From Squalus acanthias (lineage: Eukaryota), in contig CM059429.1 of assembly GCA_030390025.1 (NCBI GenBank), positions 138,322,001 through 138,386,000 on the forward strand: 64,000 nucleotides of DNA. The letters are read 5' to 3'. Position numbers and translations under genes: made by a program. Below are positions 26,088 to 64,000 of this stretch, piece after piece. Positions within the stretch are counted from its first letter, which is position 1; every line of letters begins with the position of its first letter. The notes under the pieces are model-generated. The model had not been told where the DNA came from and ran no database searches. It saw only the letters and a program-made list of their open reading frames with translations.

Positions 26088-26394
26088 GTACGGTATAACT
26101 ATTCATTTCGGTTCAGGAAAAAAGCTTTAATGAAGAGTGGTTTACAAAAGCTATTCCTCTGATTGGCATCAGACCACATTACATCAGGTCACCTTTTTGG
26201 AAATTTTAAGACATGGCTGTATGATATTTAAGAAATTAGATTATACCAAACATTAGCTGAAATCTGGCTTCTAAAATGTATAACCTCCCAGCTGATTGAT
26301 GTGTACTGAGTTGCCTGGCAGAAAAAAGGTGCAAATCAACTCAAAGCAGAGAAGTCCATACATCCCAAACACTATTATACCAGAGCAACTGTCC

Positions 26395-28192: not shown

Positions 28193-28395
28193 CCATGATG
28201 TGGAGATGCCGGTGTTGGACTGGGGTGGACAAATGTGAGAAGTCGCACAACACCAGGTTATAGTCCAACAGCTTTATTTGAAATCACAAGCTTTCGGAGC
28301 GCTGCTCCTTCACCTGACGAAGGAGCAGCGCTCCGAAAGCTTGTGATTTCAAATAAAGCTGTTGGACGATAACCTGGTGTTGTGCGACTTCTCAC
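28193..28395. mobile_element. Penelope-derived mini-element, mostly a 79-bp-arm inverted repeat
   Basis: Arms 28233-28311 and 28319-28397 (1 mismatch); 12-bp TSD atactatagaaa at 28181-28192 and 28396-28407. Confidence 0.85.
28310..28346 (+). ncRNA. Minimal type I hammerhead ribozyme motif (Penelope-associated)
   Basis: tcac-CTGACGA-a-ggagc-agc-gctcc-GAAA-gc-tt-gtga: conserved core boxes, 5-bp stem II, 4-bp stem I, palindromic AGCT in place of stem III. Confidence 0.7.
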
Positions 28396-29860: not shown

Positions 29861-30250
29861 ACACATAGGATCTGCAGCGACAGTCTGCTTAAGGTGGGAC
29901 CCTTCCTGCATTATTCAGTCTTTCCTCCTGGTGGGTTGATTTGGGCAGAGATGTCTGAAGGTGGGCTTGTTCCATCCCTTGGCTAAGGGAAATAGTGTGA
30001 ATATAAGAGTAAATTCACCGATCCTGCACTCCCAGTGGGAAACCGTGTTCAGAGGAGGTGTGGGTCAGAAATAGGACTACAACACTGCCACTCTGATTCT
30101 CTGGCTGCCTTTGAGTGTAACTCCCTGTTGGGAGCATCAGATTGATGAATTTACTCGACAGAAAGAAAAATGGGCGGAGCTGACTTTCTCGGGTTTTCAA
30201 ACATTAAACATTAAACTATGTTATCTCTTTGTTTTCAATTTCACAAACAG

Positions 30251-30673
30251 AATTTAAAATGCAAGTGGATAAAACAGAATTGAATATTAGCATACCGGAG
30301 AAGGACCTGTTTCAGCTCAGCTGCAATGTAACCCACCAAACAAAAGATAATTCGCAGTTTGCCGTATCCTGGTTCGCATGGAAAGTCAAAGAGGGTGCTG
30401 ACAGAATCATGAAGGAGACCATTTTAAAAGTTGATCACAATTCAGTGTTTGGGTTCGATGTCTCACTGGACGGTGCTGAAGGGATGAAGGACAGACTGCA
30501 GTTAGAGAGACCCTCCCATGGATTGTACAGCTTAACGGTGCAGAACTCTGACAGCAGTGACGCTGGGAATTACTACTGTCACGTGGAGGAATGGATTCAA
30601 AATGCCAACAATATCTGGTATAAACTAGGAGAGGATGAGTCCGGGCTGGTCATGGTCACTGTACAAAACAAAG
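30251..30673 (+). CDS. IGSF3: IGSF3 internal exon, membrane-proximal V-type Ig domain
   Basis: Acceptor caaacag at 30250 and donor G|gtaact at 30674; 423 bp, phase 1-1; FQLSC...VSWF...DAGNYYCHVEEWIQ (canonical EWI). Confidence 0.92.
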
Positions 30674-30952
30674 GTAACTTATTACTCAGAGAAAAATTTG
30701 ATCTTGCCTGAATCATATGTGGTCAGTTACATTAAATACTTTCAGTGCACTCCCAGTGCTTAGTGCATGATGCACTGGGAGCACTTCATGAAGGCGGCCA
30801 GATTTTGTGATGCAACCTGACGACCCTTAAAGGTTGATGGGAAAAATGCAAGGGTTGCAGACACTTAAGGTCATTGAGCACCTGTTTGATCCATGTGTGA
30901 GCAGTACGTTAGCTGATATTGTGGAGCTAGCTGGAAATGAGCCGCAAGCATT

Positions 30953-32780: not shown

Positions 32781-32890
32781 CTGATGTGGAGATGTTGGAC
32801 TGGGGTGGACAAATGTGAGAAGTCGCACAACACCAGGTTATAGTCCAACAGTTTTATTTTAAATCACAAGCTTTCGGAGCGCTGCTCCTT
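32781..32890. mobile_element. Penelope-derived mini-insertion (same family as 28193)
   Basis: Near-identical to 28196-28311; 9-bp TSD tctattcct at 32772-32780 and 32890-32898. Confidence 0.8.
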
Positions 32891-33613
32891 CTATTCCTGT
32901 GTCTTTGCTACTCTTCCTCTATTTCTTGTTTTTTTTTTCTCTTTGTTAATGTCTTCCTGGGAACAGTGAAAGGTTGCAGGAGGGAGTGAGCCAGAGGCGG
33001 CACTGAGCAGAAAGTGGCAGGAGAGAACAAATGGCAGAATGTGGAGTGGCCATAGATGAAACTGAAGTGCAGAGAGGGAGTGAGTCAGGGAGACGTGCAT
33101 GATGAAGTTGGTCTGCTATGTTTGGGGGATTGGGGAGACAGCTGAGCGAATGGAAAGTGCAGTGGATAAGTTTGTGATTTTACTTATAAATGATTTTTTA
33201 GTATGTTAATTAGGTAATAAAGTTTATTTTAAGGGTATATAATGGGATGGGTGAGGGACTTACTTAGAAGCTATACACCACAGAAATTATTTTTTGATAG
33301 AATGTGACTAAACTGATCAGAACTAATATTACAGAGATTATGTTGGGATCTGATTAGTCTCTGGCAACATGGTCCTCGATTTTAAAACCCCGCCCCTGGA
33401 CGGGCGAGAATGGATCCTGGTGTCCGAGGTGAGGGGGAGGGGAGAGAGGGTCCTGGTTGGGGTGGGGGATGGTGGCGGGGGAGTTAAAATATCAGGATTG
33501 AGCAGGCCGACCCCATTCCCACCCCGTTAAATTTTAAAGTGCAGAAATCAGGCCATGGAAGAGGCTCCAGCAAAAGGCAGGCAGGGGCCTAATTAACATA
33601 CCATAATTAACAT

Positions 33614-34092: not shown

Positions 34093-35150
34093 CTCCCGAT
34101 CGCCAGCCCTCCCGATCGCCAGCCCTCCCGATCCCCATCCCTTCCTATCGCCAGCCCTCCCGATCCCCAGCCTCCCCCCAGCCCTCCTGATCCCACCCCT
34201 CCCGATCCCCACCCCTCCCGCCAGTCTCCCCCCAGCCCTCCCAATCACCAGTCTCCCCCCATCGCCAGCCTCCCCCCCCAGCCCTCCCAATTCCCATCCC
34301 TTCCTATCGCCAGCCCTCCCGATCGCCAGCCCTCCCGATCCCCAGCCTCCCCCCAGCCCTCCTGATCCCACCCCTCCCGATCCCCACCCCTCCCGCCAGT
34401 CTCCCCCCCAGCCCTCCCAATCACCAGTCTCCCCCCATCGCCAGCCTCCCCCCCAGCCCTCCCAATTCCCATCCCTTCCTATCGCCAGCCCTCCCGATCC
34501 CCACCCCTCCCGATCCCCATCCCTTCCTATCGCCAGCCCTCCCGATCCCCACCCCTCCCGATCCCCATCCCTTCCTATCGCCAGCCCTCCCGATCCCCAG
34601 CCCTCCCGATCCCCAGCCCTCCCGATCCCCAGCCCTCCCGATCGCCAGCCCTCCCGATCCCCATCCCTTCCTATCGCCAGCCCTCCCAATCCCCAGCCTC
34701 CCCCCAGCCCTCCTGATCCCACCCCTCCCGATCCCCATCCCTCCCGCCAGTCTCCCCCCCCCCCAGCCCTCCCAATCACCAGTCTGCCCCCATCGCTAGC
34801 CTCCCCCCCCCAGCCCTCCCAATTCCCATCCCTTCCTATCGCCAGCCCTCCCGATCCCCAGCCTCCCCCCAGCACTCCTGATCCCACCCCTCCCGATCCC
34901 CATCCCTCCTGCCAGCCTCCCCCCATCTCTCCCGATCCCCATCCCTCCCTATCGCCAGCCTCCCCCATCCCTCCCTATCGCCAGCCTCCTCCCCCAGCCC
35001 TCCCGATTCCCATCCCTCCCCCCAGCCCTCCCGATTCCCATCCCTCCCCCCAGCCCTCCCGATCCCCAGCCCTTCCAATCACCAGCCTCCCCCCAGCCCT
35101 CCCGATCCCCAACCCTTCCAATCACCAGCCTCCCCCCAGCCCTCCCGATT
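34093..35150. repeat. C-rich/G-rich minisatellite (~16-bp units cagccctcccgatc[gc/cc]) with higher-order blocks
   Basis: Tandem variants visible directly; a larger block recurs at ~34168, ~34342 and ~34694. Confidence 0.95.
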
Positions 35151-36398: not shown

Positions 36399-36649
36399 GT
36401 TCTTCTCTTCAGGAAGCGATTTGTTCAAATGATGCCCTATTCTACTTTATATTTTTCTACCCTTTTCCAATTTTTGGAGTCCTCCTTATTGCCATTTTAC
36501 TAACACGTTATAAAACCCTAAACTCGCAGAAGAAATCTGATGGTAAAAATGGTGTTCCATTACTCTGGATTAAAGAACCAGCGGTGACTTATTCTCCAAC
36601 AAGCCTTGAGCCACCGGATTTCAGAATAGGACCAGGAAGCCTCGCTTAA
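36399..36649 (+). CDS. IGSF3: IGSF3 terminal coding exon: transmembrane helix and cytoplasmic tail
   Basis: Acceptor ttctttcctacag at 36398; ICSNDALFYFIFFYPFPIFGVLLIAILL-TRYK...SDGKNGVPLLWIKEP...YSPTSLEPP..., stop TAA 36647-36649; closely matches the vertebrate IGSF3 C-terminus as I recall it. Confidence 0.93.
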
Positions 36650-39600
36650 CAGAGGAAGGGGGAAAATGATTTTGGAGAAAAAATAACTGACATTCAACTG
36701 AAGGGGTCAAAGTTATAATGAATTAAGGATGAATATTAACCCCAAAAAATCCAAGTTTGGAAGCAATATCCTCCACCTCTTATATTAAGAATGTACATTC
36801 TGAGGGTTATGGCATTGAAATATGGGGTAGAGAGGGTGCATTTATTCCAAGTTGTTTGGCTCAATTGGCCTCCTCCCCATTACCCCCAACACAATTACTT
36901 GATATAGTTGGAATGTTTAATTTTACACTAATGTAGATATATCGTCTTCTGCCAACTGTTTTCACTGCATGAGAGTTCTGCTTGTCACATTAGTCTGCTA
37001 TGTGTAATAGGTCTGATCTCATTAAAATGCCAGATGATCTCCTGAATGTTAAGACTATTGTCACTCCCGAAGAATACGGAACTGTAGCAAATGCAGTACC
37101 GTGGAGGGAAAATATTGAACTGTAATGATGTAAAATTTAGGGTTTTTTTTCTGAAGCTTCATGACACTTGACTGCCCCAATGCTTGGTTAACAAGTCTAA
37201 GAAGAGTCAACACTAAATCAAAGGGAAGTCATGACTGGAGGGATGGACATACACCCAGACCTTCTGTTCAATCACAACACTGCTTAGAATATTTGAACAA
37301 CAGAAACAATAAAAGGGGAGTGGGAAGATCATGGAAGCTGAGGAGAAGCTGTAGCACTGAAGGCTCATAGACGTTGTGTCAGGCAAATTCAGTGTTTGAC
37401 AAGTTTCAAATGACTATGACATGTGCAATAGAAAAGCCACGAAGGACACCTTATGCAGGCGATGAACATCGTTAATCCTATGACTGCATTGTGACAGAAT
37501 TACATGAAGATGATGTTACCTGAATACAGGATGTGGGACAATGAAATTCCATCCCTTCCAGTGAATATAGATAAGGATCAAGCAGATTATTAGCAAGTAT
37601 AGCCAAGGTTTCTCATTTATGAATTTTTTGATACAGAAATCTGATTAAGCTGCAACTCTGTAGAATGGAAAAGTAGCCATGCAGCTGGATAGGTTTTTTT
37701 TTATACATTGTTTTTGCACTTTTTGAAATAACTTTTTATTCTGTGTTTGAACAAGCATCATTATAATTGCCTATTTTGTTTTGATAGTGTTCATTTGGTC
37801 AAAGGAAATAGTTACAAGCCTGAACAAATCCAGTGCCCAAACAGGTTCAATGTGCTAACAGAATCCTAAGCTTTCCTGCAAGCCTGGTCAGCCTAAATCA
37901 TATAACACTTGTCTCAGCTTAAATATCTTCGAGAATTTTCAAACATTCATTCATACTCTGTTGTAAAACAAATTCATTTGTATTTACTAAACCACTCTTA
38001 AAATCTTAATTACCTAATGTATTGCTGTACACAGTTAAGATATGATGTAGGTGGGATTGAATTATCCATGACATTTTTAGGGGTTTTGCACTGAAGCAAA
38101 AATGACTATTTCATTGGATCAAACTCTCAAAAATCACAATAAATTCCACAGGATGGGAAAAAAAATCACTGATATTTGTGTGGGGAAACAGAAGTGGCCT
38201 TGGGAAGGGGAAAGTCAGAGGTGCAAGTGGTCTTGTCAAGACAGCATCACTATCATGGAGACAGAGCAGGATGCAAGATGATGCGTAGGAAGATTCTACA
38301 GTCAAACTTTTTATCCCAACACTGACTGGCTAACCAAACTGGCTGGATCTCCCTACATAGGCTGGTTTATCAGTTTTCATGTTGAATTGATATCATTTGA
38401 TGCAGTACAAGATTTAAATTGATAGATCAAAGACTTGGGTAACTAATCACCTAAGTCTTTGATCTAACAGGGGTGTTCCCTGAGCTGGTCACATAAATCC
38501 CACTGCACAAGCTGATCAGAATAGAATCCACTATTTTCTAGATAAAGTTGCTCTCTTCTGGAAAATGCTCCTGTATTATCACATACAATGTATGTATAAT
38601 GAGCCCTGCACCAACAACACAGGGCTCATTATACATAGATCCATTGTAAGCCACTGCATCCTTGATCTAGCAGTTCTAACTTCCACACTATTGTTACAGT
38701 TCCAGGCTGTAAGAACACAACAGCTGCAGGTTCTGGTAAGATTCTGATAATACCTTTATCTTCCAATCAGAGACGTTACATTTAAGATGACCAATGATGG
38801 CTTCAGGCATTATTTTATTGCATGTGGTGCTGGGTGCTTTGCTGCATTTGCTGTCTTCTTGCAGTATTTTAAAAGCACAGAAGAGTTATAATAACAACAG
38901 CTTTGTGTAACGATTTGGTCTGGGGTTCCTTTGAAATACGCATTTAGACTTTGTTTACTCGTCGGAGCTGTTGCATGAGGTGGCATAGTATATCAGTCTG
39001 AATTCAGTCACAGGATTCATCATCAGACTAAGCATTTAGCCCAAGGATGCTTCATGTGAGTGTGTGATCAGTGGAACACAATGTCCTCATTAGCCAGGGC
39101 AGCGAGGGAGAGCGGGCTTCTGACTTCACTAGTGCATTCATATCGTATATCTGTGTACATCCATCAGTGGAGAATGTAAATTTGCTGTGGACTCAACACT
39201 AAGGTCAGTTGATGACTTTGTGCCACTTGGACTCTTCTGTGTAGCCCCACACATACCGTGTGCTTTACCATTACCAAATGAAGTGACCGACTTAAACCCT
39301 AAACCTGCAGGACCATGAGATGCTCATTGGCTTGATTATGTTATTCCCTCCCCCAACCTTACAAGTTCACAGTGTTGTTGTAACGTAACCTCTGCACTAC
39401 ACACCCTCATCTTCATAATAAGATCAACATTTAGCAAAAATCTTTGATTTTCTTCTCATAAAACTTGCCCAAGCAGTTACTGCCTCTGAATTTGTTGTTT
39501 CTGGTCCTGGACCAGCTAGACTGGTTTGAATGAATCACTTCATGGAGCTTGAACATCTTGTACATTTATGTTGGAGAGTGAGGCACTTGTTTACAAAACT

Positions 39601-41147: not shown

Positions 41148-41856
41148 GGCCCAGATATTCCGATCCCTACGGGTGGGTACGCGCTGTGTACCCACCCGTA
41201 GGGACATCGGAAATGCCAGTTTCAGGCATGCACAGCTCATGCGCTGAAAACCGGCATTTCCGATCTGTCAAAAATCCTCTTGACAGATCCTCCGCCTGCC
41301 CTGGAGAAGGGCCTCTGCGGGCGGATAGTTCCGCTTTTTGGAGACCCTCCGCCCGCAGAAAACCCTTACAATTCTTACGCCTGGTAAAAGCAGGCGTAAA
41401 GCCTGCTTTTACCAGGATAAGAGTTGAAAAAAAGTTTTTTTAAAAAATTTCACTGATGTATCATTTAAAAATACTTTTAAAAAAAGGTAAGTTTATTTTT
41501 AGCCCCGTAAAAAACTTTAATTTTTTTCAAAAAATTAAATTTTTGTTTAAAATATTTAATTTATTGTAATTTCAAGTCATTTGAAAAATGTGATTTTTTT
41601 AAAAAATGTATTTAAAGTTTTACTATGTTTTTGGGGTGATCTCCATTCATATATTTGACAGGTCTTCCTGTCAAGTGTATGGAGGGAGATTCCCTTCTTT
41701 GATTGGCTCTCCATGGCCCACATGATCCCAGGGATGCCTCTGGGATATGTGGGCCCTGCACACTTGGAGTTTGAGAGGCCCAGGAGCGGAAGTGTGTGCG
41801 TCCCGGGAGCCCTCGGGTAAAGGCGTAGATTTTTTCCAGATCGGAAAATACGGCCC
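41148..41856. mobile_element. Harbinger-type MITE, family B
   Basis: TIRs ggcccagatattccgatc / gatcggaaaatacggccc; flanks att/agt; internal perfect 17-bp hairpin tccctacgggtgggtac..gtacccacccgtaggga. Confidence 0.75.
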
Positions 41857-46199: not shown

Positions 46200-47950
46200 G
46201 ATTTTTAAAAATTCATTCACGGGAAATGGGCATCACTGGCAAATCAGACATTTATTGCCCAACCCTAGTTGCCCTTGAGAAGGTGTTGGTGGGCCTCCTT
46301 GAACTGCTGCAGTCTTTGTGGTAAAGATAGTTCTACAATGCAGTTCGGTAGGAATTTCCAGGATCTTGACCCAGCAATGATGAAGGAACGGCGATATCTG
46401 TCCAAGTCGGAATTGTGTGTGACTTGGATGATGGTGTTCCCATGCATCTGCTGTCCTTGTCCATCTAGGTGGTGGAGATTGCGGGTTTGGGAGGTGCTGG
46501 CGAAGAAGTCTTGGTGGCTTGCTGCAGTGCATCCTGTAGATATTACACAACCAGTGACAGTAAGCTGATGGTGGAGGGAGTGGATGCTTAAGTTGGTGGA
46601 TGGGGTGCTGATCATGTGGACTCTTTTGTCCTGGATGGTGTCGAGCTTCTTGAATGTTGTTGCAGCTTCACCCATCCAGGCAAATGGAGAGTATTCCATC
46701 ATACTCCTGACTCATGCCTTGTAGGTAGTGGAGAGGCTTTGGGGAGTCAGGTGAGCAATTTGTTGCAAAATACCCAGTTTATGACCTGCTCTAGTAGTGA
46801 CTGCATTTATGTGGCTGGTCCAGTTGAGTCTCTGGTCAATGGTGACCCCCCAGGAAGTTGATGGTGGGGGATTCAACTATGTTAATTCCATTGAATGTCA
46901 AAGGGTTAGACTTTCTCTTGTTGGGGATGGTCATTGCCTGGCCCTTGTGTGGCATAAAAGTTAGTTGCCACTTATCAGCCCAAGCCTGGATGTTGTCCAG
47001 GTCTTGCTGCATGCGGGCATGAACTGCTTCATTATCTGAGGAATTGCAAATTGAGCTGCTGAACACTGCAATCATCATGCAAGTAGCCCCACTTCTGACC
47101 TTATCATGGATAAAACAGCTGAAGATGGTTGGGCCTAGAACATTGCACAGAGGAACTCCTGCAGCAATGTCCTGGGATTGAGATGAATTGCTTCCAACAA
47201 CCACAACTATCTACCTTTGACAGTTATGACTCCAGCCACTGGTGAGTATTCCCCCTAATCCCCATTGACTTCAGTTTTACTAGGGCTCCTTGGTGCCACA
47301 ATCGGTCAAATGCTGCCTTGATGTCAAGGGCAATCACTCTTACCTCGCCTCTGGAATTCAGCTCTTTTGTCCATATTTGGACCATGGCTGTAATGAGGTC
47401 TGGAGCTGAGTGGTCCTGGCGGAACCCAAACTGAGCATCGGTGAGTGTGTCATTGGTCAGAAAGTGCCACTTGATAGCACTGGTGACAACTCCTTCCATT
47501 ACTTTGCTGATGATTGGGAGTTGGCTGATAATGCAATAATTGGCCAGGTTAGATTTGCCATGCTTTTTGTGGACAGGACATGCCTGACCAATTTTCCACA
47601 CTGTCGGGTAGATGTCAGTGTTGTAGTTGGAGTGGAACAGCTTGGCGAGACGCATGGTTAGTTCTGGAGCACAACTCTTCAGCACTACAGCCGGATGTTG
47701 TCAGGGCGTGTAGCCTTTGCTGTGCCCAGTACACTCAGCCGTTTCTTGATATCACGTGGAGTGAATCGAATTGGCTGAAGACTGGCATCTGTGATGGTGG
47801 GGACCTCAGGAGGAGGCAGTGAATGTTTATTCACCCAGCACTTCTGGCTAAAGATGGTTGCGACTGCTTCAGCTTTATCTTTTGCACTCACACTGGGCTC
47901 CGCCATCACTGAGGATGCAGATGTCCATGGACCACTCTCCACCCATTAGC
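46200..47950 (-). mobile_element. Second, more decayed copy of the LINE at 790-3360
   Basis: ORFs 47224..47685, 46836..47204 and 46265..46702 align by eye with ORFs 1385..2290 and 996..1379 (e.g. QFGFRQDHSAPDLITA, LDIKAAFDR). Confidence 0.9.
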
Positions 47951-52492: not shown

Positions 52493-53267
52493 CCTAAATT
52501 TAGTTTATGTGCCCATTTGCTGCCCAAGGTCTGCTCCGCCCCATCAACCATTTGCTTAACAGGAAATGAACCAGTGCTCACTACAGGCTCGTTGTGTGCG
52601 CACTCGGTCGGACTGGACTAAAATTCCAAGTCCACGTCCTCCATTTTGGAAACAGAACTTCCCTCTTATTCTGATGCCAAACTCCAACATGACGGTGAAA
52701 GCCAGCAACTTGAATTAACAGCACCAGTAATGGGGGAGGTGGATGGCACTTGAGAGAAATAAACAGGGCACTGAGCGACTTTACCCAACCGACCTCATCG
52801 CCATAAATCCTTTACTGACAAAGGCAGCCCCCCTCTTTCCTCCTCCCCAACCCTTTCACAAATAGCCGGTGGTATCTTAAAGGACACGAGCGCCCAGACT
52901 AGGCCTATCCGTCCGTCAGAGAAGCACATGGCCATGAATATAAAGCTCCGAGTTTGATTCTCCGTAATATTTAATGTTTGAGAGTTGTTGGTTACATAGA
53001 ATTTACAGCACAGAAACAGGCCATTCGTCCCATCTGGTCCACATGAGCCTCCTCCCACCCTACTTCATCTAATCCTATCTGCATATTCTTCTATTCCTTT
53101 CTCCCTCATGTACTTATTGAGTTCCCCTTTAAATGCATCTATGCTATTCATGAGGAAAATCGTGATAACGCCTTCAGCTATTTTATTAACTCAGACTGAA
53201 GACATTGAAGGAGAGAGTCACATCGGATCCCGATTATTACGACCTTGCCGCAGGCCCAGAAGTCTCT

Positions 53268-54125
53268 GGGGGAAAAATTTGGTTGCTTTGCGCCTCCCGT
53301 TAGCGCGCTAATGGGATGCAAAGCAACAAGCGCCCGGGCGCAGCGATGTTTGCGCCGCTTGCAAAATTGACCAGACATTTTGCGGCAGTGCTAAACACTA
53401 CCGCCACGATCGTGACGTCAGTCGCGCGTGCAACGCCCCAGTAGGCCCCGGACCGGATATTGAGTGGCGCCCCCTGCCTTACCACCTGCCTGCTAGCGAC
53501 GACAGGTTGAGGGGAACGTTTTGCAGTCGGGAAGGGACTGGGGGAGCGCTATTTAAATGCGACCGCTTCCTGCCTTTTTTTGTCGGCGACATTTTTACAC
53601 CACGCATTCTGAGAGAGAGAGAGAGACTTCTAGAGAGATTTAACGCTGTGTAAAGGAGTTTTGGGTACTGAGCAGCACTTTGCAGGTTCATTTTGATTTG
53701 ACCTTCCTTGCATCGATTTAGAAGAGACTTGGGGGCTGCACTCTGAGCTCTTGCCCTGGGCCTCTCCATTGTTCTTTCCAGCAGATTTGATGTACAGGTC
53801 TGTCCAGGCCGAGGTTCAAGGCTGCAATGAGCAGGGTGTGGATGGAGAGCAAGATTGACCCTCCCCTTTAAGAGCTGGCCGGCGCCAGTGTGTCTGTGTT
53901 CCATCGCTGACTGACATCACGAGCTTCGCCAGCACTCTGAGGTAGCGCCTCGCTCCTCGGCGTTAGCGCCTTAAGAGAGGTGTGTAGCACCTGATTTAGC
54001 GCTCAAATCACCTCCAGGGCGATAGAAGCCAAGTTTGCAGTCGGAGGCGATAATTAGCGCCAGGCGCTAAACTTTGCGCCGGCCGATAATTGCGCCCCAA
54101 ACGGGGCGATACGGAAATCTCCCCC
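53268..54125. mobile_element. Harbinger-type MITE, family A (inverted relative to 9536-10352)
   Basis: TIRs gggggaaaaatttggt / acggaaatctccccc; 3-bp TSD tct. Confidence 0.8.
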
Positions 54126-55132
54126 TCTTTCTTTCCTTCCACCTCCCCCCGACCCCTCCAAGGCCACGTGGCGCGCGGGTGCACTCTCTCCATTGACGGC
54201 GCTCTTTTCAAATGTGCGAGCGGTTACCAACCGACAAAGGGCTGCTCCGCACAAGGGGAAAGAAAAGGTTTGAAAGGAAGGCTCACATTAACTCGGCCCA
54301 CGCAACGCCAGACTAACTCGCTTATTTCCCCATTCCCAACTCCGGTTTCAATCCCCCGGAAGAGAAGTTATAACTTCCACTATTTTATTTAACAGTTCAA
54401 TGCGGCGAGTGGTTTGTGAACATGGAAGCGATTAGGGTGGGATCAAAAAAAAACTTGCCGAGATAAATACTGCTGTAAAAGTCAGTGACATGCAAAGGGA
54501 CTTGACTAACCGTACAAATGGTGTCCAACAGTAAGAACCTGAATTAACTGCGAATGCACAGTCTTTGTATAGCTGAGACTATTCCACTCGTCTCAATATA
54601 CAGGGGAGACTACTGATGTTTATGCCATAAACATCAGTAGTCTCCCCTGTATATTGATGGGACAAACCAACTGGCAGACCCCCTGAAATCTTCTCACGGA
54701 CCCCCAGTTGAGAACCCCTACCCTAGATCATATTCTTAATTTTCCCTGATCCCAGAATAACCCCAGTGCTCCCAGAACCTAAAACCTCAATGCGCCCATA
54801 TCCTAGGATCACTCTCCCAGTGTTCCTAAAACCTCCCTCTCCAGTGTTCTGGAACCCTGGGATGCCCGCCTTCACTATATGCTGGACTCTGAGATCCCAT
54901 TCCAGTACTGCCAGGTCCGACACCAACCCCACCCCTTCCCAGCGCTCCCAGGTTCACCCCGATGCTGACAAGTCATGGTCCCTGATAATACTAATTAGCA
55001 TAACATTCCTGTTCTTATAAAACCTCTGATTTATTGTGAGCAACACTGTGATATCTTCTAAGTTCAAAAGAAAACACAAAGTGCCATTGCTGCTTGATCT
55101 TTTTTCAGATTGGATGTACCTCTTTAAAAGTT

Positions 55133-55199
55133 CATGATGCGGAGATGCCGGCGTTGGACTGGGGTGGACAAAAATGAGAAGTCGCACAACACCAGGTTA
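55133..55199. mobile_element. Penelope-derived mini-insertion
   Basis: Matches 28194-28260; 12-bp TSD tctttaaaagtt at 55121-55132 and 55200-55211. Confidence 0.8.
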
Positions 55200-56009
55200 T
55201 CTTTAAAAGTTGGGATAGGATGCCACCTAGTGTACAAAACCAAATTCCTCAATGCTTGATAAACACAGGCTCATGCTGATCTAAGAAATGGCGTCTAGTT
55301 GCCCAAGTCTCTATCCATTTACTCCATCACATTCCTTTACTCCAATTATATGAAATTCTTGCTTCAGGCATAATGCATAAGGGTATCAATTATGTCATTA
55401 ATTTTTCTCATGCTCTGTATAAGCAAAGTTGTCAACCTGTGATCCAATTATACAGGATTGCAGTCTGATCTATGCTGTAAAGGAGGCAAATTAGTTTTCA
55501 TTCAGACTAACAGACAAACTCAAATTATATTGTATGAGATAAATCAATTTGACAGGATGTTTTTAAACGGACGTTGCTGCTAGTTGTGCATGCCTGGTAC
55601 GTTTGAGGTATGCACTAGTTACTTCTAGGAGGCTTCTTTCGACCATCCACTGTAACTTTGCCCATTCTCTAGAATTTCCACAGATCTTCCGCCAACATTA
55701 CGGCTTACAATTGAGAGAACCTCCATTGAAACTTAACGACTTGGTGTTGTTTTTGTGATTCTGTGGATACCAGCTTAAGTAACCAATATAAATGATCTGA
55801 ACTTGGCAAATAAACATACATGGACTGGCTTCTGGCTCATGTTTATTGGTATACATTTCTCATCGTAAGATTCTGAAGTATGCTAATGCACATGTTGTGT
55901 ATTTGCAGCAGTTCCGTTTTTTTATTTCAGTTTTCCAGGATTTACAGGTTTAGTTTTCATTACTTTGTGATACCTGATTTTCCATAATATTTAATGTTTT
56001 GAGAGTTGT

Positions 56010-56452
56010 TGGTTACATAGAATTTACAGCACAGAAACAGGCCATTCGTCCCATCTGGTCTATGCTGGTGTTTATGCTCCATGTGAGCCTCCTCCCACCC
56101 TACTTCATCTAACCCTATCAGCATATCCTTCTATTCCTTTCTCCCTTTGTACTTATCTAGCTTCCCCTTAAATGCATCTGTGCTATTTGCCTCAACTACT
56201 CCATGTCGTAGCATGTTCCGCACTCTAACCACTCTCTGGGTAAAGAAGTTTCTCCTGAATTACTGGATTTATTAGTGACTATCTTATATTTATAATCCCT
56301 AGTTATGGATTACCCCACAAGTGTAAACATCTTATCTACTTCAACCCTATCAAACCCCGACAGAATTTTAAAGACCTCTATCAGGTCACCCCTCAGCTTT
56401 CTCTTTTCTAGAGAAAAGAGCCCCAGCCGGTTCAGTCTTTCCCGATAATTCT
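56010..56452 (-). mobile_element. CR1 3' fragment, cut at 56452 by the ERV LTR
   Basis: Reverse complement of a CR1 C-terminus and 3' UTR (ttaaagacctctatcaggtcacccctcagc). Confidence 0.8.
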
Positions 56453-57158
56453 TGTAAGAATATCGATATGTCTTTTACATTACTTTTAGTTCGAACAAAA
56501 ACAAAACAGTACTGTAGACAGAATTGATATAAATCATGTTCTCGAAAAGGATCAATTTCAGGACAAAGGATATTTTGTATGGTAAAGATAGGCACAAAAA
56601 AATAACTAAGCTAGGTGGAGAAATATTGAGCTTAAAGAAGTATTAAGATTGAATCATAAAAGCTTTTGGAGCACAGGCTTTTCATCACAGCAGGGTGAAG
56701 GCATCAAATGTTGTTTACAACAAAGCTATGGCTTGGGGAAAAGCAGTGATAGGAAGTAACAGTATGGTGTGAAAAATGCATGGGGCCTCTCATCTCTGTT
56801 TGGCAATCGATTGAAACAACTGGGTCGTCTAAAAAACATTAGATAGTGTTGCATTCAGCAGGAAGAGAACCATAAAAGATAACAGTATAAAGAAATGCCA
56901 TGTTTTTACTTAGAAAGAAAGTAACCGTTGCTGCCTTCGGGACCTGGCGTAAATAGGCTTGAAGAAGGCATCTTCACGATTCCTCATTAAATCTACGCAC
57001 AGTAAATTTTAGACACGGGGCTAATGTGTGGTACTCTGTATGGTTGGTTAGGGTGTTTAAGATTAATGTTTTGTCAACAATAAATGAAGTGAATTATCAA
57101 ACATATTACTGTCTCTAGCTTTATGAATCTGTTTAATGGGTAAAGAACTTATCCAACA
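56453..57158 (+). mobile_element. 5' LTR of an endogenous retrovirus (706 bp)
   Basis: TG...CA ends (TGTAAG at 56453, CCAACA at 57158); TATAAA 56886; AATAAA 57079; directly followed by the PBS; first 15 nt match 63752-63766 at 14/15. Confidence 0.8.
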
Positions 57159-57161
57159 GTT

Positions 57162-57179
57162 TGGCGAGCCAGGCAGGAG
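57162..57179 (+). promoter_or_regulatory. Retroviral primer-binding site (PBS) complementary to tRNA-Arg(ACG)
   Basis: TGGCGAGCCAGGCAGGAG is 17/18 to TGGCGAGCCAGCCAGGAG, the complement of the vertebrate tRNA-Arg(ACG) 3' end as I recall it; it starts 3 nt after the LTR end. Confidence 0.8.
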
Positions 57180-57513
57180 CTAAGACTAGTAGTTGTTTGA
57201 CCATTGAACCAGGGATGGGCCAGCTCTGATTTAATAAGACCCATACAGCAGTAGAAGCGATAAAGTTGTAGATCTCGGATATTTGAACAATGAGTAAATT
57301 AGAGGAGTATGTAGTCCAGTATCTCATAAGGCATGGTGGTGGACCACCCCGCCCCCACCCCCATAACAGAGTTATCAGAGAAAATACGCAAGAAGAATTT
57401 TTTGAGCAAACTTAAACAGGATGGGACTAAGTGTGCCGTAAGACAAGGATTGTTTGCTGTAGTCAGAACCCTGTCCACAACAAAATAGGTAAAGGAATTC
57501 CTACAATTTAAAG

Positions 57514-57637
57514 TGAGAAGTCACACAACACCAGGTTATAGTCCAACAGTTTTATTTGAAATCACAAGCTTTCGGAGCGGCTGCTCCTTCGTCACTTTTT
57601 TGCACCCCAGTCCAACACCGGCATCTCCGCATCATGG
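57514..57637. mobile_element. Penelope-derived mini-insertion with internal inversion, inside the ERV
   Basis: Same family as 28193; 13-bp TSD ctacaatttaaag at 57501-57513 and 57638-57650. Confidence 0.82.
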
Positions 57638-58186
57638 CTACAATTTAAAGATAAGATTGTTCACCCACACACAGCAGTAGCTTGTTCGGAAGCATTTGAA
57701 GTTTCTGTAGAAAGGGACCATCTCAAAGCTGGGAGCGAAAGGGGACAATGTGAGAGGTGTAAAGATGGTCTGGGTGTTGTAGTAGTGAGAGAGGCAGTTG
57801 CAATGATTCAGCAACTGAGAAATTTACTGGGACTTTTCACGAGTTTCTCAGTGTCCCCTTGCTTGTGTACTCTTTGCCATTACACCCCTTCCGTTGCTCA
57901 ATAGAGAGGAAATCAAGAAATTGTGCAGGAGGCCGAGGAGTTTATATTAGCCCTTTCACAGCAAACAAAAGCAGTTATGTAAAAATTAATTGTTAGCTAT
58001 CCAACAAGTAAGAACAGATTTAAGAAGAGAAAGAAATTGAAAGTCCACAGCAAATATCAGAGATTAAGATTGTTGTGAGAAAACAGGATTGAGGTAAAAG
58101 ACTAACAGACTTTCTTTAGTGTTTCATGTACTGTCTCTTTAAATATGTGTCCTTCTTTCTGCTGTTTCATGCTGCAGTGTCTCACA

Positions 58187-58679
58187 AGGGGAATTTTAAC
58201 CTAAAAAAGTGTGGGTTTGGAGCGTGAGGGTAGTTAAATTGTTAAAAATGTGGACGGAAGTGATCCCGTCCACTTCCAGTTTTAACAGGCGGGACGGGGG
58301 GGGGGGGTGGGGGCGGGCGACCAACCCGCTCCCAGGGGGCGGAACGTCAATTTAAATATTATAATAAGGCTGGAAGCCTCTTTTATAACCACCATTCTGT
58401 TTTTAACTGCATGTGGACGGGTTTCACACAATTCGTGAATCCCGGCAGTTACAGCAAAATGGGGACTGCTGGATCCAGGAGGTAAGTGCCTTTATACCTA
58501 CCTCCTGGATCCAGGGTCCCTACCTGACTCACTCCCCGTGATCGGAGACCCCCTCACGAGGCCTCCGATTGCCATCCCGTTAAAGTTGGCAGGGCCTGCA
58601 GGAAACCCATTCTCCCAGGTTTCCAGCTCACATCGGAGCCCCCCGCCCTCAACCCGCCTTCCCCATGAAAATCCAGCCC
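58187..58679. mobile_element. Harbinger-type MITE inside the ERV
   Basis: Right end aaaatccagccc identical to that of 15205-15845; 3-bp TSD aca. Confidence 0.65.
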
Positions 58680-58700
58680 ACAGAATTAAAAGCAATTTAA

Positions 58701-59562
58701 GGCCAAGATTTTGCCAGCGCTCCGAGGGCGGGTTTGGAGGCGGGTCATAGGTTAAATTCGTTTTGATTGACGGCGGGTTCTGATCCCGCTGTCAACCCAC
58801 CTCCAAACAGCTTTCCCAAATGTCAGGTCCCCGATTTGCGAATGAACCCAACACCTAGAGGCGGGAAGTGGATTAAAGGCAATTACCTGCCTATTAACAA
58901 GTACTTGCCAGTAGCTGTCAGCCTATTTTTGGATTTTGACGCTTCTAGCTCGGGTTTCCCGACGTCCGGACACCGCGCCAGGTAAGTGTGGTGTGTTGTG
59001 AGTCTGGATTGATGACAGCTGCAGAAGTGGTGTGAAGGGTCCAATGTTGCACATAGTGAGTCTCAGAGGAAAGAAAATGTTGGGTACTGCATTTTTAATA
59101 CATTACAGATTTCTTTAGCTTGCAAGTTTTTAAATCCATGTCCAGTGCCACTTCATTGGGAGAACCTCTCTCACCAGTGACAGATCGCTTCTGTCACCTC
59201 ACCTGCAACTGCCATCTATTCCAGCCTATGGAGGGAGTCATTGGAGAGCCTGGATGCAAGAGTTCACCTTTGTGCAGTGATTGTCAGTGTTTTCAGCACC
59301 TCAATGCTGTCAAACACTGAGAAATCAACTGTCAAAATAAAATTATGCTTGGTCCCTTTAAGGAAACCGGCAGATGACGCGTCATCAAATGACGTCATCT
59401 GACTCACTTCCTGTTAATTGGCTGGCAAGCCCACAGGGCGGGCTTAACAAGGTTAATCAAGGCAAAATCACGTCTGTGGAGCAGAAGCAGCTGGGGTCGG
59501 GACTGGAAGCCGGAAAGTAGCTGACCCGCACTCAACCCACCTCCATTAATAAAATCGCAGCC
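58701..59562. mobile_element. Harbinger-type MITE inside the ERV
   Basis: TIRs ggccaagatttt / aaaatcgcagcc; canonical Harbinger TSD taa. Confidence 0.7.
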
Positions 59563-60339
59563 TAAGTCTCTGTAGTCTCTGTGGTTGCTTTTAGGAGCAA
59601 TATAAGCATTTTGATCATTGTCTTTTCTATGAGCATATGCTGCTTTATGCTTGTTAATTGTTTTCTGTATATGTATTCAAATATGTGTTATTTTTACGAT
59701 ATTGAGTTCTTATGGGGAATTTTTTGGGTTTGAAAACTGAAATTTACAGACCGTGTGTCTGGTCAAATTATGAACACTGCTTTTTTATTAGTGGCCACTT
59801 TAGAAAACTGGTTATGCGAATTTTGTGAACAATCACTCGCTCGCGACTTGGGATTATTACATAAAATTTGGTACTTTTGAGTTAATCTACCTATAAAAAG
59901 GAATCAATATTTTAAGGTGGATGAGAGCAAATAAGGCTTGAAAGATTGAGTGTGATTAAGATACGTGGTCTTGTTATGAGAGTGTGAATGTGGTTGTTAA
60001 AACTAAGTTTTAATATAAGATTGTGCCCTCAAAATGTAAGAGATTTAAGGAAAACCTTTGTGATTTCATGAAAGTGTTTGACGTTTGGCATGGATTTATT
60101 TTACTGTAATTTACATTATACCACTGTTAAAATGCGCAGAGTTTTTATTAGGTAAAAACAGCTTTGAAGAATTACAAAGTTACAGTTTGAACTTTTTCAA
60201 AGCACTTTTTTTAATTGACTTAGCAGCTGAAATTGCTACTGTGCTGGCTGACTCCTCCCCAACCCCAAAGGGTTATTTCACAGTGAGCAAGTAATTAATC
60301 CCTTCTATGTTCTATATTAGTTTTTTAAGTATCAGCTCA

Positions 60340-60640
60340 AAGCGATACCACCACGCTTACTACTGCGGCAGTTCTTGTGGAACAAGTTCTTTCGAGGTGG
60401 GGCGATCAAGGTGATCGATAGTAATAATGGAGCATGATTTGTAAGTCAGGTCATGAAAGAAATGTGCACAATGTTAGGGATAGAACAGAAATTTCACAAT
60501 CCATAGCACCTGCAAGTGTCAGGCTTGGTGGAAGGAACAAATAGAATGGTTAAAACTACGTTAAAGAAAGTAGTCAGTGAGACTGAGATCTTAAAATACT
60601 CCTGATTTTGAGGGCAATTAGAGGAACTGTGACCGGTCAT
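60340..60640 (+). pseudogene. Retroviral integrase catalytic-core relic (pol)
   Basis: TTAAVLVEQVLSRWG..IDSNNGA*FVSQVMKEMCTMLGIEQKFHNP*HLQVSGLVEGTNRMVKTTLKKVVSET..LILRAIRGT matches the SDNG...YHPQSSGxVERxN integrase pattern, with stops and frameshifts. Confidence 0.82.
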
Positions 60641-60649
60641 GAAAATGCA

Positions 60650-61326
60650 TCTCCGAAACAGCTGCCCCGGAGCGCCCCGAAAAAGTTAGCACCCCCGCGG
60701 CCGATTTTCCCTGGTAGCGCCCCGAGAGGGAGGAGGGGCGCTACTGGAAGCACCCCGCGTCCCTCTTGGGACGCTGCGAGCCAATATCGCGGCACTGCGG
60801 CACGTCGCGCCGCGGTACTGCAGCCTTCCTCCCCTTATTAAAGGAGAGGGGCCTGGCGCAGCGCGTCCCGGCGCCCAGCTGGGCCACCAGGGATCGGGAG
60901 TGCCGGCAAACTAACCTGGGCTCACGGAGAGCAGCCGGCACCCCGCGGTGGGACTTCATGGGGGCCGGGGACAGCAACGGGGGCAGGTGCTGGCAGGCGG
61001 CCAGCAACAGAAATGGCTGCCCGCCACCTCCCCTTTAACTAGCGCCGCCCCAGCCGCAGGTAGGCCCCCCTGACCCCGGCGGACATAGCGTCCGGCGGTA
61101 AGTCGGGGGGTGCCACCTAATGTTACAGCCGGGGTGCGAGCGGGGCGCTGCGCACGGCGATTACATAATTGCCGGCGGCGCAGCGCCACGCGGCGCTAAC
61201 GGTTAGCACCGCCGCTAACCTCCTGCTGAATTTCACGGGAGGCGTTAGCGGCGCTGCGCCCAGGTGCTAGTTGATTTGCCCTCTTAGGGCGCTAATGGGA
61301 GGCGCAAATCAACCGAATTTAGCCCC
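60650..61326. mobile_element. GC-rich Harbinger-type MITE related to family A, inside the ERV
   Basis: Right end ggcgcaaatcaaccgaatttagcccc resembles 10330-10352; left boundary uncertain. Confidence 0.6.
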
Positions 61327-61479
61327 TTAAACCCTTTCAGGACACCGACCATTGAAAGGCTTTTCCCTTTTCAGTTCATAAATTTGGTTAATTTCTGATT
61401 AAATTCTAACCTGTACGGAGAATTATTTCTTTTTAAATTGAAAGAATGTTCCTTGCTGCTCTGAGGAAGTAAATACCGG

Positions 61480-63700
61480 AGTACCTGAATACTTCTCCTA
61501 CTAATGACAATTGGCGGTGCAAGGCGGGCCGATATTTATCTGGCATTATGATACACCCAGAACTTTAAATTTTTCATATTTCTGGCAACCACATGAAGGT
61601 GAATAAATTAACATTCAACAATTGTGGTAATTGTTTGAACTGCGAACTCATGTTAAAAAAAACAAAGGCAAGATCCCATATGTAACAAAACTAAATTGAA
61701 CCAGACTGAATCAATGAAATGTCCGAGGCAAGGTAAAGGACCAAATAATGGACTGATAGTGATTTGCAATTTGGAAATTCTCCTTCTCTGTTAAATTTTC
61801 CTTTTGTATCTTTGCCTTCTGTTTTATGTGATTGTATATGAAATGTAATTATGTGCCGCTAAGAGAAATACTGAGCGCAATTTGGCAAGAAATCAAGTGA
61901 ATTGACATAAAGAAAATGTGGGAACATGATGAGACAATGCACAAGTAATTAAGGGGATGGTTTAAAGGAATGAATAGGCAGACGGGATGTTATATCAGAA
62001 CAACAAACACTATTAAGAACTGATCTCAAAGGTAGTACATATAGAGCATGTTTCTACTTAAATCAGATCCAAAAAGGGGTTAAATGATATAGAAAACAAT
62101 TGGATACCAAATGTTATATTGGGCAAACAAATAAAATTTTTAAATCAAATGGGAATATGGTTGGTGTCAGGTACAAAGATTCAGATTGTTGTAATATACC
62201 AGGAAGCCTGCAGGCAGAGTGACATTATTTTGGACTGTAAGATCTTAATGATCTCTGAGTTCTTGGACAAGACACAAATAGGCAGCAGCCAGTATGTTTG
62301 AGCAATAGATCAAGATTTATTAAGCTTACAGCGTAATATACTTCACAACAGGCAATAGTTTAACGAGTAGCTCCCAGCCCTCGGTCTCTGGAGCCTCTCG
62401 GACACAGGTGACGTCGTCTTCAGTCTGTTCCTTTGTCTTTGCAGTAGATCTGTGTGAAGTTGTCCTTTGAGTATCGAGGTTTTAACCTTTTTCTTATCAA
62501 AAGTTTGTTTGGCCAGTGTCCATATATGGTCTTTAACAAAATTACCTTTTTTAATTGGTTCTAATAGTCAAAATACCATTGTCACTCAGACTAAAGTTAG
62601 CATCTTGGCCCCGGCTTTCCAGTATTTTTCCTACAACTTTACCATATTCAGTGTTATCTTGTTTATACATTCTTTACCCCACTGAAATTTACCTTATCTC
62701 TCCCATTTCTAGCTTCCCTGGTACACAAGCAGTGTTAAGCGAACTCTAATTAAGCTTAGCATTATAATATGTTATTTTAACAATTTAACCCTCACTCGCA
62801 GCCTGTGGCTGTTTGTTATCAGAGCTTAGTCAAAACTGTTTCTGACTGTCCTTGCGGCTACATTTGAACAAGCCTTAATATTTCCATACCCACAGGGAAT
62901 TGTGGGCAATATTAGTTGGTCAATAGCTGCACTTAAATTTATACATATATGATTCTCATCTACTAAGGACCTCTAAATATCAGTCTTTCGTACAGGATGG
63001 ATTCCTGTCATAATACCATTGTTATCTTTCAATGTAAGACCAATAAAAGTATTTAAAGTGAATGCTATAGACTTGTTGGAAGATGAAATAGGTAAGGAGT
63101 TTGTAAACTATTCAAGGAAACTAGTTAGAGGTAATGAGGGAGTCTGGATAGCCCCAGAGAAATTGGTGCCTGGTGATGTAGCTGTGATTTGCTGTAGAGC
63201 ACATCATCAGCATGTGGCCTCACCCCGGATGAAGAATCCCCTAACTGCAATATACAGGTTGATCGATGGAACTCAGAGAACTAATGTTTGGAGAGAGGGA
63301 GGTATTGCGTTACACACCATATGCATGGTTTGGTGGACAACATTTTGCCTTACACCAACCACTGAAAAAAACCTAAATTGGGGTTAAAATATTGGTGCCT
63401 GTTGGGGCCTACGTTGTTACAGGAACTCAAGTAAACGCTACCCACAAGACAGAAGCCTTCCGAGCAGTTGTAAATTTTGGCCACCCAATTCCGCCCTTTC
63501 TTGAATTTTAACTCTATATTGCAATGCATCAGCACTTCTCAGAGACAATATCATCGTTATACAGCAGCAGAGTGATACTGAACAGCCACGTTGGGTAACC
63601 ATGAATGATGGGAAGTGGCATATAGCAGTAATGGTTTGCTTGTTTTTAAAAAAAACAAATCTTAAAGCAAGTTAAGATAAAAGAAAATATGATAAATATT
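61480..63700 (+). pseudogene. env-like glycoprotein relic of the ERV (interrupted by a solo LTR)
   Basis: Lies between integrase and PPT; hydrophobic ILLLLMTIGG near 61490; heptad-like stretch at ~61900-62100; Cys-rich fragments GWIPVIIPLLSF..FKVNAI, SACGLT..NCNIQV, GRYCVTH, TFCLTP; hydrophobic IAVMVCLFL near 63620. Confidence 0.5.
62236..62894 (-). mobile_element. Solo LTR of a second LTR-element family
   Basis: TG...CA termini, 659 bp; on the - strand a CCAAT box and an AATAAA (tttatt near 62316) about 80 nt before the end; TSD only partial (tggac/gggaa). Confidence 0.55.
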
Positions 63701-63740
63701 AGCTCTGACAGGAAAATAAATAGGAGGTCTTTCAAGCCTC

Positions 63741-63766
63741 AAAGTGGGGAATGTAAGAATATCAAT
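63741..63766 (+). mobile_element. Polypurine tract (PPT) and start of the ERV 3' LTR
   Basis: aaagtggggaa (63741-63751) then TGTAAGAATATCAAT, versus TGTAAGAATATCGAT at 56453. Confidence 0.78.
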
Positions 63767-64000
63767 GGGCCAGAAATTCGGCTCCCTGGCTTCCCACGGG
63801 TGCAAGGATCGCGCGCGCACCTACCTACCGCGCCTGTCGTTGACCTCTGGGCCCACGGAGACTTCAGCTCCTGGGCCTCCTGCAGCTGCCGGCGCGCAGT
63901 GCTTGTGTATCCCAGGGGCGTAGTTAGTGCGATGCGTCCCCTGGGATCACGTGGGCCATGGAGAGCCAATGGCAGCAGACCATCTTTCATTCATAGATTT
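63767..64000. mobile_element. Harbinger-type MITE (family B-like) inserted in the 3' LTR, truncated by the window end
   Basis: Starts gggccagaaatt after aat, like 22022; shares ccctgggatcac..gggccatggagagccaat with the reverse complement of ~41700-41735. Confidence 0.7.

What the first reader, a model, noticed from the sequence alone, without database searches (positions are those of the whole stretch)
56453..64000. Hidden shark endogenous retrovirus with full proviral layout (LTR-PBS-gag-pol/IN-env-PPT-LTR)
Seen in sequence: a 706-bp TG..CA LTR with TATA and poly(A) signals; a PBS directly after it; a gag-like start MSKLEEYVVQYLIRHGGGPP at ATG 57290; an integrase core at 60340-60640; an env-like region; and a PPT followed by a 14/15 copy of the LTR start at 63752. 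Apart from an env-like piece (ORF 63019..63387) and the integrase tail (start of ORF 60608..60841), the ORF track misses it because of stops and six nested insertions. With insertions removed, under 2 kb separates the PBS from the integrase core, so most of gag/PR/RT appears deleted (inference). The provirus interrupts a CR1 at 56452. Chondrichthyan ERVs are thinly described, so this may be an undescribed lineage.
Basis: partly seen in the sequence, partly recalled or inferred. Interest (0 to 1): 0.82.

Follow-up and report, generated by a model that had tools for sequence, protein, structure and literature searches.

The report
Decayed provirus, probably in a shark
This is a real but long-dead remnant of a retrovirus-like element, missing most of its genes and broken up by later insertions; such fossils are ordinary in fishes, and its exact lineage could not be fixed.

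Summary
The frame of a provirus is real. It has a 706-bp TG..CA LTR, a primer-binding site matching tRNA-Arg(ACG) at 17 of 18 bases, and an integrase core (Pfam rve E=5e-4; solved integrases E=2e-7). A purine tract is followed by a 14/15 copy of the LTR start, the only such copy in the window. 'Full layout' overstates it: no protease, RT, RNase H, capsid or integrase zinc finger was detected, and only about 3.8 kb of internal sequence remains once insertions are subtracted. The env-position frame is stop-depleted (2 of 3000 simulations as open), so it once coded, but no database named it Env; 'gag' is unsupported. By hand count, the integrase shares two residues with the retroviral and lokiretroviral rows seen that the Ty3/Gypsy rows lack. 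It is 34-47% identical to gamma, Loki and shark SnRV-like integrases alike, so lineage is unresolved. It fails the foamy markers and differs from the SnRV-like elephant-shark ERV and from canonical Loki Env. Best reading: an inert, internally deleted ERV, perhaps SnRV-related. Shark ERVs of several clades are already described. The 3' LTR, TSD, age, siblings and host species remain unchecked.

The parts
56040..56452 (-). 3' part of a CR1-like LINE abutting the LTR (host-side flank)
   Evidence: 78% over 436 nt to a copy at 3401-3834; similarity reaches to about 5 bases from the LTR edge; the CR1 label is recalled, no Pfam hit for this piece
56453..57158 (+). 5' LTR, TG..CA, TATA-like 56886, AATAAA 57079
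   Evidence: start repeated at 63752
57162..57179 (+). Primer-binding site, tRNA-Arg(ACG)
   Evidence: 17 of 18 against the mammalian tRNA-Arg(ACG) complement printed in PMC7757669
57290..58110 (+). Broken first ORF in gag position; identity unproven (gag N-terminal part or an accessory ORF)
   Evidence: stops and an insertion; no family hit; 3' half 4 stops in 157 codons, P=0.07
57514..57637 (.). Nested short dispersed repeat with 13-bp TSD
   Evidence: TSD; copies near 28193-28395, 32812-32891, 55133-55200
58187..59565 (.). Two adjacent GC-rich MITE-like insertions (~58187-58680, ~58699-59565)
   Evidence: GC/CpG jump; imperfect terminal inverted repeats; no Pfam hit in 6 of 6 frames; no other copy in the window
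59570..60320 (+). T-rich spacer with no sign of coding; its last ~80 bases may hold decayed integrase sequence (by eye only)
   Evidence: GC 0.33, T 0.38; not stop-depleted; no meaningful Pfam hit
60320..60640 (+). Integrase catalytic-core remnant with in-frame stops and a frameshift; no zinc finger found
   Evidence: Pfam rve E=4.9e-4, below the curated cut-off; 125 PDB sequences matched at E<=10, the 60 shown all integrase entries, best E=2.1e-7; HHCC pattern absent
60641..61328 (.). Nested GC-rich MITE-like insertion in the integrase; left end uncertain
   Evidence: 74% over 140 nt to 53269-53408, inverted
61330..62256 (+). Decayed integrase tail and probable first part of the env-position gene
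   Evidence: no hits; not stop-depleted; position only
62257..62893 (-). Nested solo-LTR-like insertion, unrelated to the main LTR
   Evidence: TG start, AATAAA, CA end on the minus strand; no TSD; no similarity to the main LTR, score 30 vs shuffled mean 33
62894..63680 (+). Former coding frame in env position (includes ORF 62977-63387), with a short apolar stretch near its end seen by eye
   Evidence: 5 stops against 20 and 22 in the other plus frames; 2 of 3000 simulations as open; no ISD or CX6CC; no significant true hit
63740..63751 (+). Polypurine tract ending in a 2-nt AA spacer
   Evidence: 10 of 12 purines
63752..63766 (+). First 15 bases of the 3' LTR
   Evidence: 14/15 to 56453-56467; the mismatch is CpG to CpA
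63767..64000 (.). Nested GC-rich MITE-like insertion, cut by the window end
   Evidence: copies at 22548-22640 and 41702-41733

Best explanation
An old, inert provirus of a vertebrate retrovirus, most likely outside class I (SnRV-related, class III, 'clade Huo'). Shown: LTR, Arg-tRNA primer site, integrase core, PPT, start of a second LTR, a once-coding frame in env position, heavy decay and six later insertions. Inferred from standard retroviral biology: the ancestor was transcribed from the 5' LTR, primed minus-strand DNA with tRNA-Arg(ACG) and plus-strand DNA at the PPT, and was integrated through its TG..CA ends into a CR1-like LINE about 20 kb downstream of an Ig-domain host gene. Protease, RT, RNase H and most of gag were lost, either in this copy or in a non-autonomous parent copied by a helper. 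It now encodes nothing functional.
For: Cis-elements in the right order and orientation. Integrase hits. Hand comparison of a 58-column core block: two residues (His in the K-x-H word; Ser two after the Gln before the catalytic Glu) are shared with the KoRV and elephant-shark SnRV-like rows and most Loki rows, and absent in 13 of 13 Ty3/Gypsy rows counted (12, Gmr1). The stop-depleted frame between integrase and PPT is where env sits. No ISD, CX6CC or Pfam TLV_coat signal, although the equally decayed integrase still hits Pfam, which argues against a gamma-type env. SnRV-related ERVs occur in all major vertebrate lineages (PMC6001957) and in elephant shark (PMC4422223). SnRV's use of an arginine primer, and a likeness of the first ORF and env frame to class III elements, are recalled, not tested.
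Against: The highest hand identity in the core block was to gamma-type KoRV (27/58), then Loki-Ape 24, Loki-Oja 22, Gmr1 21, CmiERV scaffold 2 20, Diaspora 18, HmGINGER1 18, Sushi-ichi 14. So the block does not favour SnRV-like; the one SnRV-like shark element seen scored lower and has another PBS and a gamma-type env. [quoted passage not shown] No tree was built; SnRV, ERV-L, epsilon and foamy integrase rows were not seen (that supplement is cut). Env and gag had no database support. Stop depletion was tested in 10 regions and is weaker over six frames (40 of 3000).
Confidence: 0.5

Rival explanations
1. Class I (epsilon- or gamma-like) ERV whose env has decayed past recognition.
For: Highest core-block identity to KoRV, 27/58 by hand; epsilon-like ERVs are known in elephant shark; orthoretrovirus-like PPT spacer.
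Against: No ISD, CX6CC or TLV_coat signal in a frame with only 5 stops in 261 codons; the flanks of the core block resemble Loki rows more than KoRV (by eye).
Confidence: 0.18
2. Lokiretrovirus, or a divergent relative, in a cartilaginous fish, with an F-like Env.
For: Core block 22-24/58, and the flanking helices resemble Loki rows; no gamma-type env motifs; the top PDB match of the env frame was a fusion glycoprotein F2 chain, but at E=1.3.
Against: The Loki Env passages seen (8 of 23 places) are strongly conserved and unlike this frame by eye. A four-residue word shared with one Loki Env occurs once in the held supplement and falls where other Loki Envs read differently, so it is probably chance. 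The PBS start was found 0 times in the held Loki supplement (file cut, line breaks can hide matches). Pfam Fusion_gly did not hit.
Confidence: 0.12
3. Ty3/Gypsy LTR retrotransposon (including Gmr1-type, with integrase before RT), with or without a captured ORF.
For: LTR, PBS, PPT and rve are shared with Metaviridae; the short PBS-to-integrase distance would fit a Gmr1 order; Gmr1 scores 21/58; no proven Env.
Against: No RT or RH downstream of the integrase in any plus frame (YxDD absent); both diagnostic residues absent in 13 of 13 Gypsy rows counted; an errantivirus survey found no intact vertebrate ERVs homologous to invertebrate elements (bioRxiv 2023.10.26.564294).
Confidence: 0.1
4. A patchwork: pieces of different elements lying side by side, with the 15-base match marking an unrelated or truncated LTR.
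For: Only 15 bases of the second LTR are visible; no TSD; long non-coding spacer; six insertions show the region collects repeats.
Against: PBS, integrase, open frame, PPT and LTR start are all on one strand in canonical order; the 15-mer copy is unique in the window and directly follows a purine tract.
Confidence: 0.07
5. Foamy-like ERV (FLERV).
For: Shark FLERVs exist; foamy Env is F-like and lacks gamma motifs (PMC11468914).
Against: The PPT:LTR junction is not GGGTG and the PBS is not Lys, Asn or Thr; no foamy integrase among the 60 PDB rows shown of 125; no foamy Env hit.
Confidence: 0.03

Closest known systems
SnRV-like / clade Huo / class III ERVs (SnRV, CmiERV lineage I, Ovex1, ENS-3)
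   Same: Proviral cis-elements; 3-nt LTR-PBS spacer as in CmiERV scaffold 2; env-position ORF without ISD or CX6CC as described for Ovex1 ORF3; Arg primer as recalled for SnRV.
   Different: CmiERV scaffold 2 has another PBS, a gamma-type env and only 20/58 core identity (by hand); this copy lacks PR, RT and RH.
Lokiretroviruses (PMC7947760)
   Same: Integrase core and flanks similar by eye (22-24/58); non-gamma env.
   Different: Env unlike the conserved Loki Env; the PBS differs from the one Loki PBS read; Loki was found in 0 of 6 chondrichthyan genomes screened.
Class I gamma/epsilon ERVs (KoRV, CmiERV lineages II/III)
   Same: Highest core-block identity (KoRV 27/58 by hand).
   Different: No ISD, CX6CC or TLV_coat signal in the env-position frame.
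Non-autonomous ERV families (BHIKHARI, ENS-1)
   Same: LTR-bounded element of reduced size without RT; such families are documented in zebrafish and chicken.
   Different: Those keep an intact Gag; here every ORF is broken and an integrase remnant persists. Whether the deletion is family-wide is unknown.

Membership tests
LTR retroelement (any) | Paired LTRs with TG..CA ends | tested here: inconclusive
   5' LTR complete; only 15 bases of the 3' copy are in the window
LTR retroelement (any) | PBS after the 5' LTR and PPT before the 3' LTR | tested here: met
LTR retroelement (any) | rve-type integrase | tested here: met
LTR retroelement (any) | Target-site duplication | not testable with these tools
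   window ends inside the last insertion
Retroviridae (ERV) | RT grouping with retroviruses; tether plus second RNase H | not testable with these tools
   no RT or RH in this copy; no sibling copies reachable
Retroviridae (ERV) | env gene between pol and the 3' LTR | tested here: inconclusive
   stop-depleted frame in that position; no homology hit; fold unusable, pLDDT 32.5
Retroviridae (ERV) | gag with capsid domain | tested here: inconclusive
   broken ORF in gag position, no capsid hit
Ty3/Gypsy | Integrase of Metaviridae type | tested here: inconclusive
   hand comparison only: two residues side with retroviral and Loki rows against 13 of 13 Gypsy rows; no tree
Ty3/Gypsy, Gmr1-type | RT-RH downstream of integrase | tested here: not met
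   no RT/RH hit in plus frames of 61320-63770; no YxDD
Class I (gamma/epsilon) ERV | Env TM with ISD and CX6CC | tested here: not met
   patterns absent in the env region, no TLV_coat hit; decay could hide them
Lokiretrovirus | Env with detectable similarity to PF00523 fusion glycoprotein and to Loki Env | tested here: inconclusive
   no Pfam hit; F2 chain only at E=1.3; unlike Loki Env by eye
Lokiretrovirus | RT sister to sampled retroviruses | not testable with these tools
   RT absent
Foamy-like ERV | GGGTG PPT:LTR junction; Lys, Asn or Thr PBS | tested here: not met
   junction has an AA spacer; PBS is Arg
SnRV-like / clade Huo | RT/Pol grouping with SnRV | not testable with these tools
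   RT absent; SnRV integrase row not in the held supplement
SnRV-like / clade Huo | Arginine tRNA primer as in SnRV | tested here: inconclusive
   PBS is Arg here; the SnRV side is recalled, paper not held; the shark SnRV-like element has another PBS

The most novel reading that the evidence does not exclude
The copy belongs to an undescribed chondrichthyan retroviral lineage that joins an Arg-primed, orthoretrovirus-like backbone to an F-like (Loki or foamy type) envelope. At the extreme it is a lokiretrovirus relative in cartilaginous fishes, where a 2020 screen found none in 6 genomes.
Probability: 0.15. Interest if true: 0.6.

Novelty: new member of a known kind. Interest (0 to 1): 0.27.

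Why it matters
As a single dead copy it matters little. Its use is as bait: the LTR and Arg primer site can find sibling copies that still hold RT. If those showed an F-like envelope on a Loki-related or new backbone in cartilaginous fishes, that would fill a host gap and bear on whether F-like envelopes are ancestral in retroviruses (the open scenarios in PMC7947760; the foamy Env-F link in PMC11468914).

Tried and rejected
Word-based protein searches gave nothing: env ORF, 0 of 93 candidates at E<=1; integrase, 0 of 40 at E<=0.001 and 0 of 1 at E<=1. The whole-library search with the env frame gave 1 hit, a 1432-aa tandem-repeat protein with no Pfam family, rejected as a repeat artefact. Atlas: env ORF best 0.90 on unnamed clusters with recognition just under threshold; first-ORF piece best 0.77; the integrase was not examined there. 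Single-sequence folds were unusable (pLDDT 32.5 and 56.3); the BFVD search with the second gave 0 of 38 matches at E<=0.001; the first was not searched. PDB searches of 2 of 3 plus frames of 61844-62258 and of a second frame of 63278-63679 gave chance hits; first-ORF hits were designed helical repeats. Rfam and ARAGORN found nothing in the window. A four-residue word shared with one Loki Env and a pneumovirus F2 chain was considered and set aside as chance. A permissive alignment extending CR1 similarity into the LTR to 56497 was rejected as gappy and AT-rich. Two papers asked for were not held. Three paper searches for SnRV Env or primer details returned 0 papers.
Full report
What is there. 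The window holds a 706-bp segment from TG at 56453 to CA at 57158 with a TATA-like word at 56886 and AATAAA at 57079. After a 3-base spacer comes an 18-base site that differs at one position from the complement of the mammalian tRNA-Arg(ACG) 3' end printed in PMC7757669 (passages); the next best site in the window has 3 mismatches. At the far end a purine tract (10 of 12) and a 2-base spacer precede a 14/15 copy of the LTR start at 63752. Only these two sites match that 15-mer at up to 3 mismatches on either strand. The window ends 233 bases later inside a GC-rich repeat, so the rest of the 3' LTR, the TSD, the resumed CR1 and an age are out of reach.

Coding remnants. Of 24 frames scanned, one gave a relevant hit: rve at E=4.9e-4, below the curated cut-off, in the frame starting at 60300. 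Three others gave unrelated weak hits (SPAN, TFCD_C and hAT-like RNase H, E 0.05-0.16), and one frame of the first-ORF region hit PDGF at E=0.008. The integrase frame matched 125 PDB sequences at E<=10; the 60 shown are all integrase entries, best E=2.1e-7. No protease, RT, RNase H, capsid, zinc-finger, ISD or env CX6CC signal was found (the one strict CX6CC match lies in the first ORF). The frame 62894-63680 has 5 stops against 20 and 22 in the other plus frames. Only 2 of 3000 Markov simulations were as open on the plus strand, 40 of 3000 over six frames. It was the only one of 10 regions with such a signal; the 3' half of the first ORF gave P=0.07 and the integrase itself 0.67, so the test is weak for short or frameshifted pieces. 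That frame once coded, and it lies where env should. No search named it; the top PDB row was a fusion glycoprotein F2 chain at E=1.3, which is not significant. The 'gag' label has no tool support.

Insertions and size. Six insertions can be placed. Three have other copies in the window, one of them with a 13-bp TSD. The others rest on GC/CpG jumps, imperfect TIRs or LTR-like signals and have approximate ends. Subtracting lengths leaves about 3.8 kb between the LTRs and about 1.66 kb from PBS to integrase core, of which some 750 bases are a T-rich spacer with no coding sign.

Retrovirus or retrotransposon. No tree could be built because no relatives were retrieved. I compared a 58-column core block by hand with rows printed in supplements. 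Identities: KoRV 27, Loki-Ape 24, Loki-Oja 22, Gmr1 21, CmiERV scaffold 2 (translated by hand) 20, Diaspora 18, HmGINGER1 18, Sushi-ichi 14. These 8 rows were chosen as examples from about 50 seen. Two columns are more telling. A His in the K-x-H word, and a Ser two positions after the Gln that precedes the catalytic Glu, are shared with KoRV, the shark element and most Loki rows. Both are absent in 13 of 13 Ty3/Gypsy rows counted. Athila4-1 was left out because it is gapped there. Mdg1, Cer3 and the GIN-type rows were not counted; by eye Cer3 has the His and Mdg1 neither residue. No RT follows the integrase, which argues against a Gmr1 order. A retroviral origin is therefore favoured but rests on hand counts.

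Which lineage. Foamy markers fail: fish foamy-like ERVs have a GGGTG PPT:LTR junction and Lys, Asn or Thr primers (PMC5210030, passages; PMC5512871, passages). Canonical lokiretroviruses fit poorly: the Env passages seen (8 of 23 places) are conserved and unlike this frame, the one Loki PBS read differs, and the PBS start occurs 0 times in the held supplement (file cut). That study found Loki in 0 of 6 chondrichthyan genomes, so a true member would be news. The SnRV-like elephant-shark ERV has another PBS and an env with ISD and CX6CC by hand translation, so this is not that family. Class I is favoured by the KoRV count but disfavoured by the missing env motifs. An SnRV-related placement is my best guess: the clade infects all major vertebrate lineages (PMC6001957, passages) and related elements can carry env-position ORFs without ISD or CX6CC (Ovex1, PMC2717909, passages). 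[quoted passage not shown]

How it worked. Inferred from standard retroviral biology: LTR-driven transcript, tRNA-Arg-primed reverse transcription, PPT-primed plus strand, integration into a CR1-like LINE. Similarity to another CR1-like copy reaches the LTR edge, which fits interruption but does not prove it. The locus lies on the same strand about 20 kb downstream of the last coding exon of an Ig V-set gene (the IGSF3-like label is recalled), so it is probably intergenic. The copy is inert. Whether the loss of pol happened here or in a helper-dependent family, as for BHIKHARI and ENS-1 (bioRxiv 2024.03.25.586437, passages), cannot be told from one copy. One exon of the host gene also shows a frameshift, so some breaks in the provirus may be assembly errors.

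Novelty. Cartilaginous-fish ERVs of SnRV-like, epsilon-like and foamy-like clades are published (PMC4422223, part 1 of 2 of the text and part 1 of 3 of supplement 1; PMC4977317, passages; PMC10699275, passages; PMC5512871). A later screen covered 13 cartilaginous genomes (PMC10435555, passages). A paper on cartilaginous-fish foamy viruses was seen as a title only and was not held. PMC7947760 was read in parts 1-3 of 4, plus supplement passages and parts 8, 81 and 82 of 82; the cut-off remainder holds the further retroviral integrase rows that bear on lineage. PMC11468914, PMC13709493 and bioRxiv 2023.10.26.564294 were seen as passages; preprint supplements were not seen. I found no description of this family in 10 paper searches, but none could search by sequence beyond a short word and repeat libraries were not available, so this is no evidence of novelty.

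Verdict. A real, decayed, internally deleted ERV-like provirus; a new member of a known kind; lineage open. Interest 0.27, rising to about 0.6 if siblings show an F-like envelope on a Loki-related or new backbone (probability about 0.15).

Noticed in passing
window 19998-20639, 25674-26098, 30208-30711, ~36400-36650 (+): Exons of an Ig V-set membrane protein gene (IGSF3-like by recall), with a TM and cytoplasmic last coding exon.
   Followed up: partly
window ~25769-25772: The second Ig exon changes frame here; either an assembly indel or a broken allele.
   Followed up: partly
window 52955-53148 and 55975-56187: About 200 bases, including the CR1-like tail and its junction, are duplicated 3 kb apart (84% overall, 63 bases identical).
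   Followed up: no
window 54593-54657: Perfect 32-bp inverted repeat with a 1-base loop.
   Followed up: no
window 62257-62893 (-): Solo-LTR-like insertion of a second, unrelated LTR family inside the env region; no TSD found.
   Followed up: partly
window 61987-62014 and 62111-62138: Two 28-base stretches 124 bases apart, 71% alike, in the env-position region; old internal duplication or chance.
   Followed up: no
window 856-3539 (-), 46233-47700 (-): LINE remnants with RT and endonuclease domains (RVT_1 E=4e-37 and 2e-11; Exo_endo_phos_2 E=1.8e-9).
   Followed up: partly
window 34093-35149: C-rich tandem array of about 16-bp period giving long proline-rich pseudo-ORFs.
   Followed up: no
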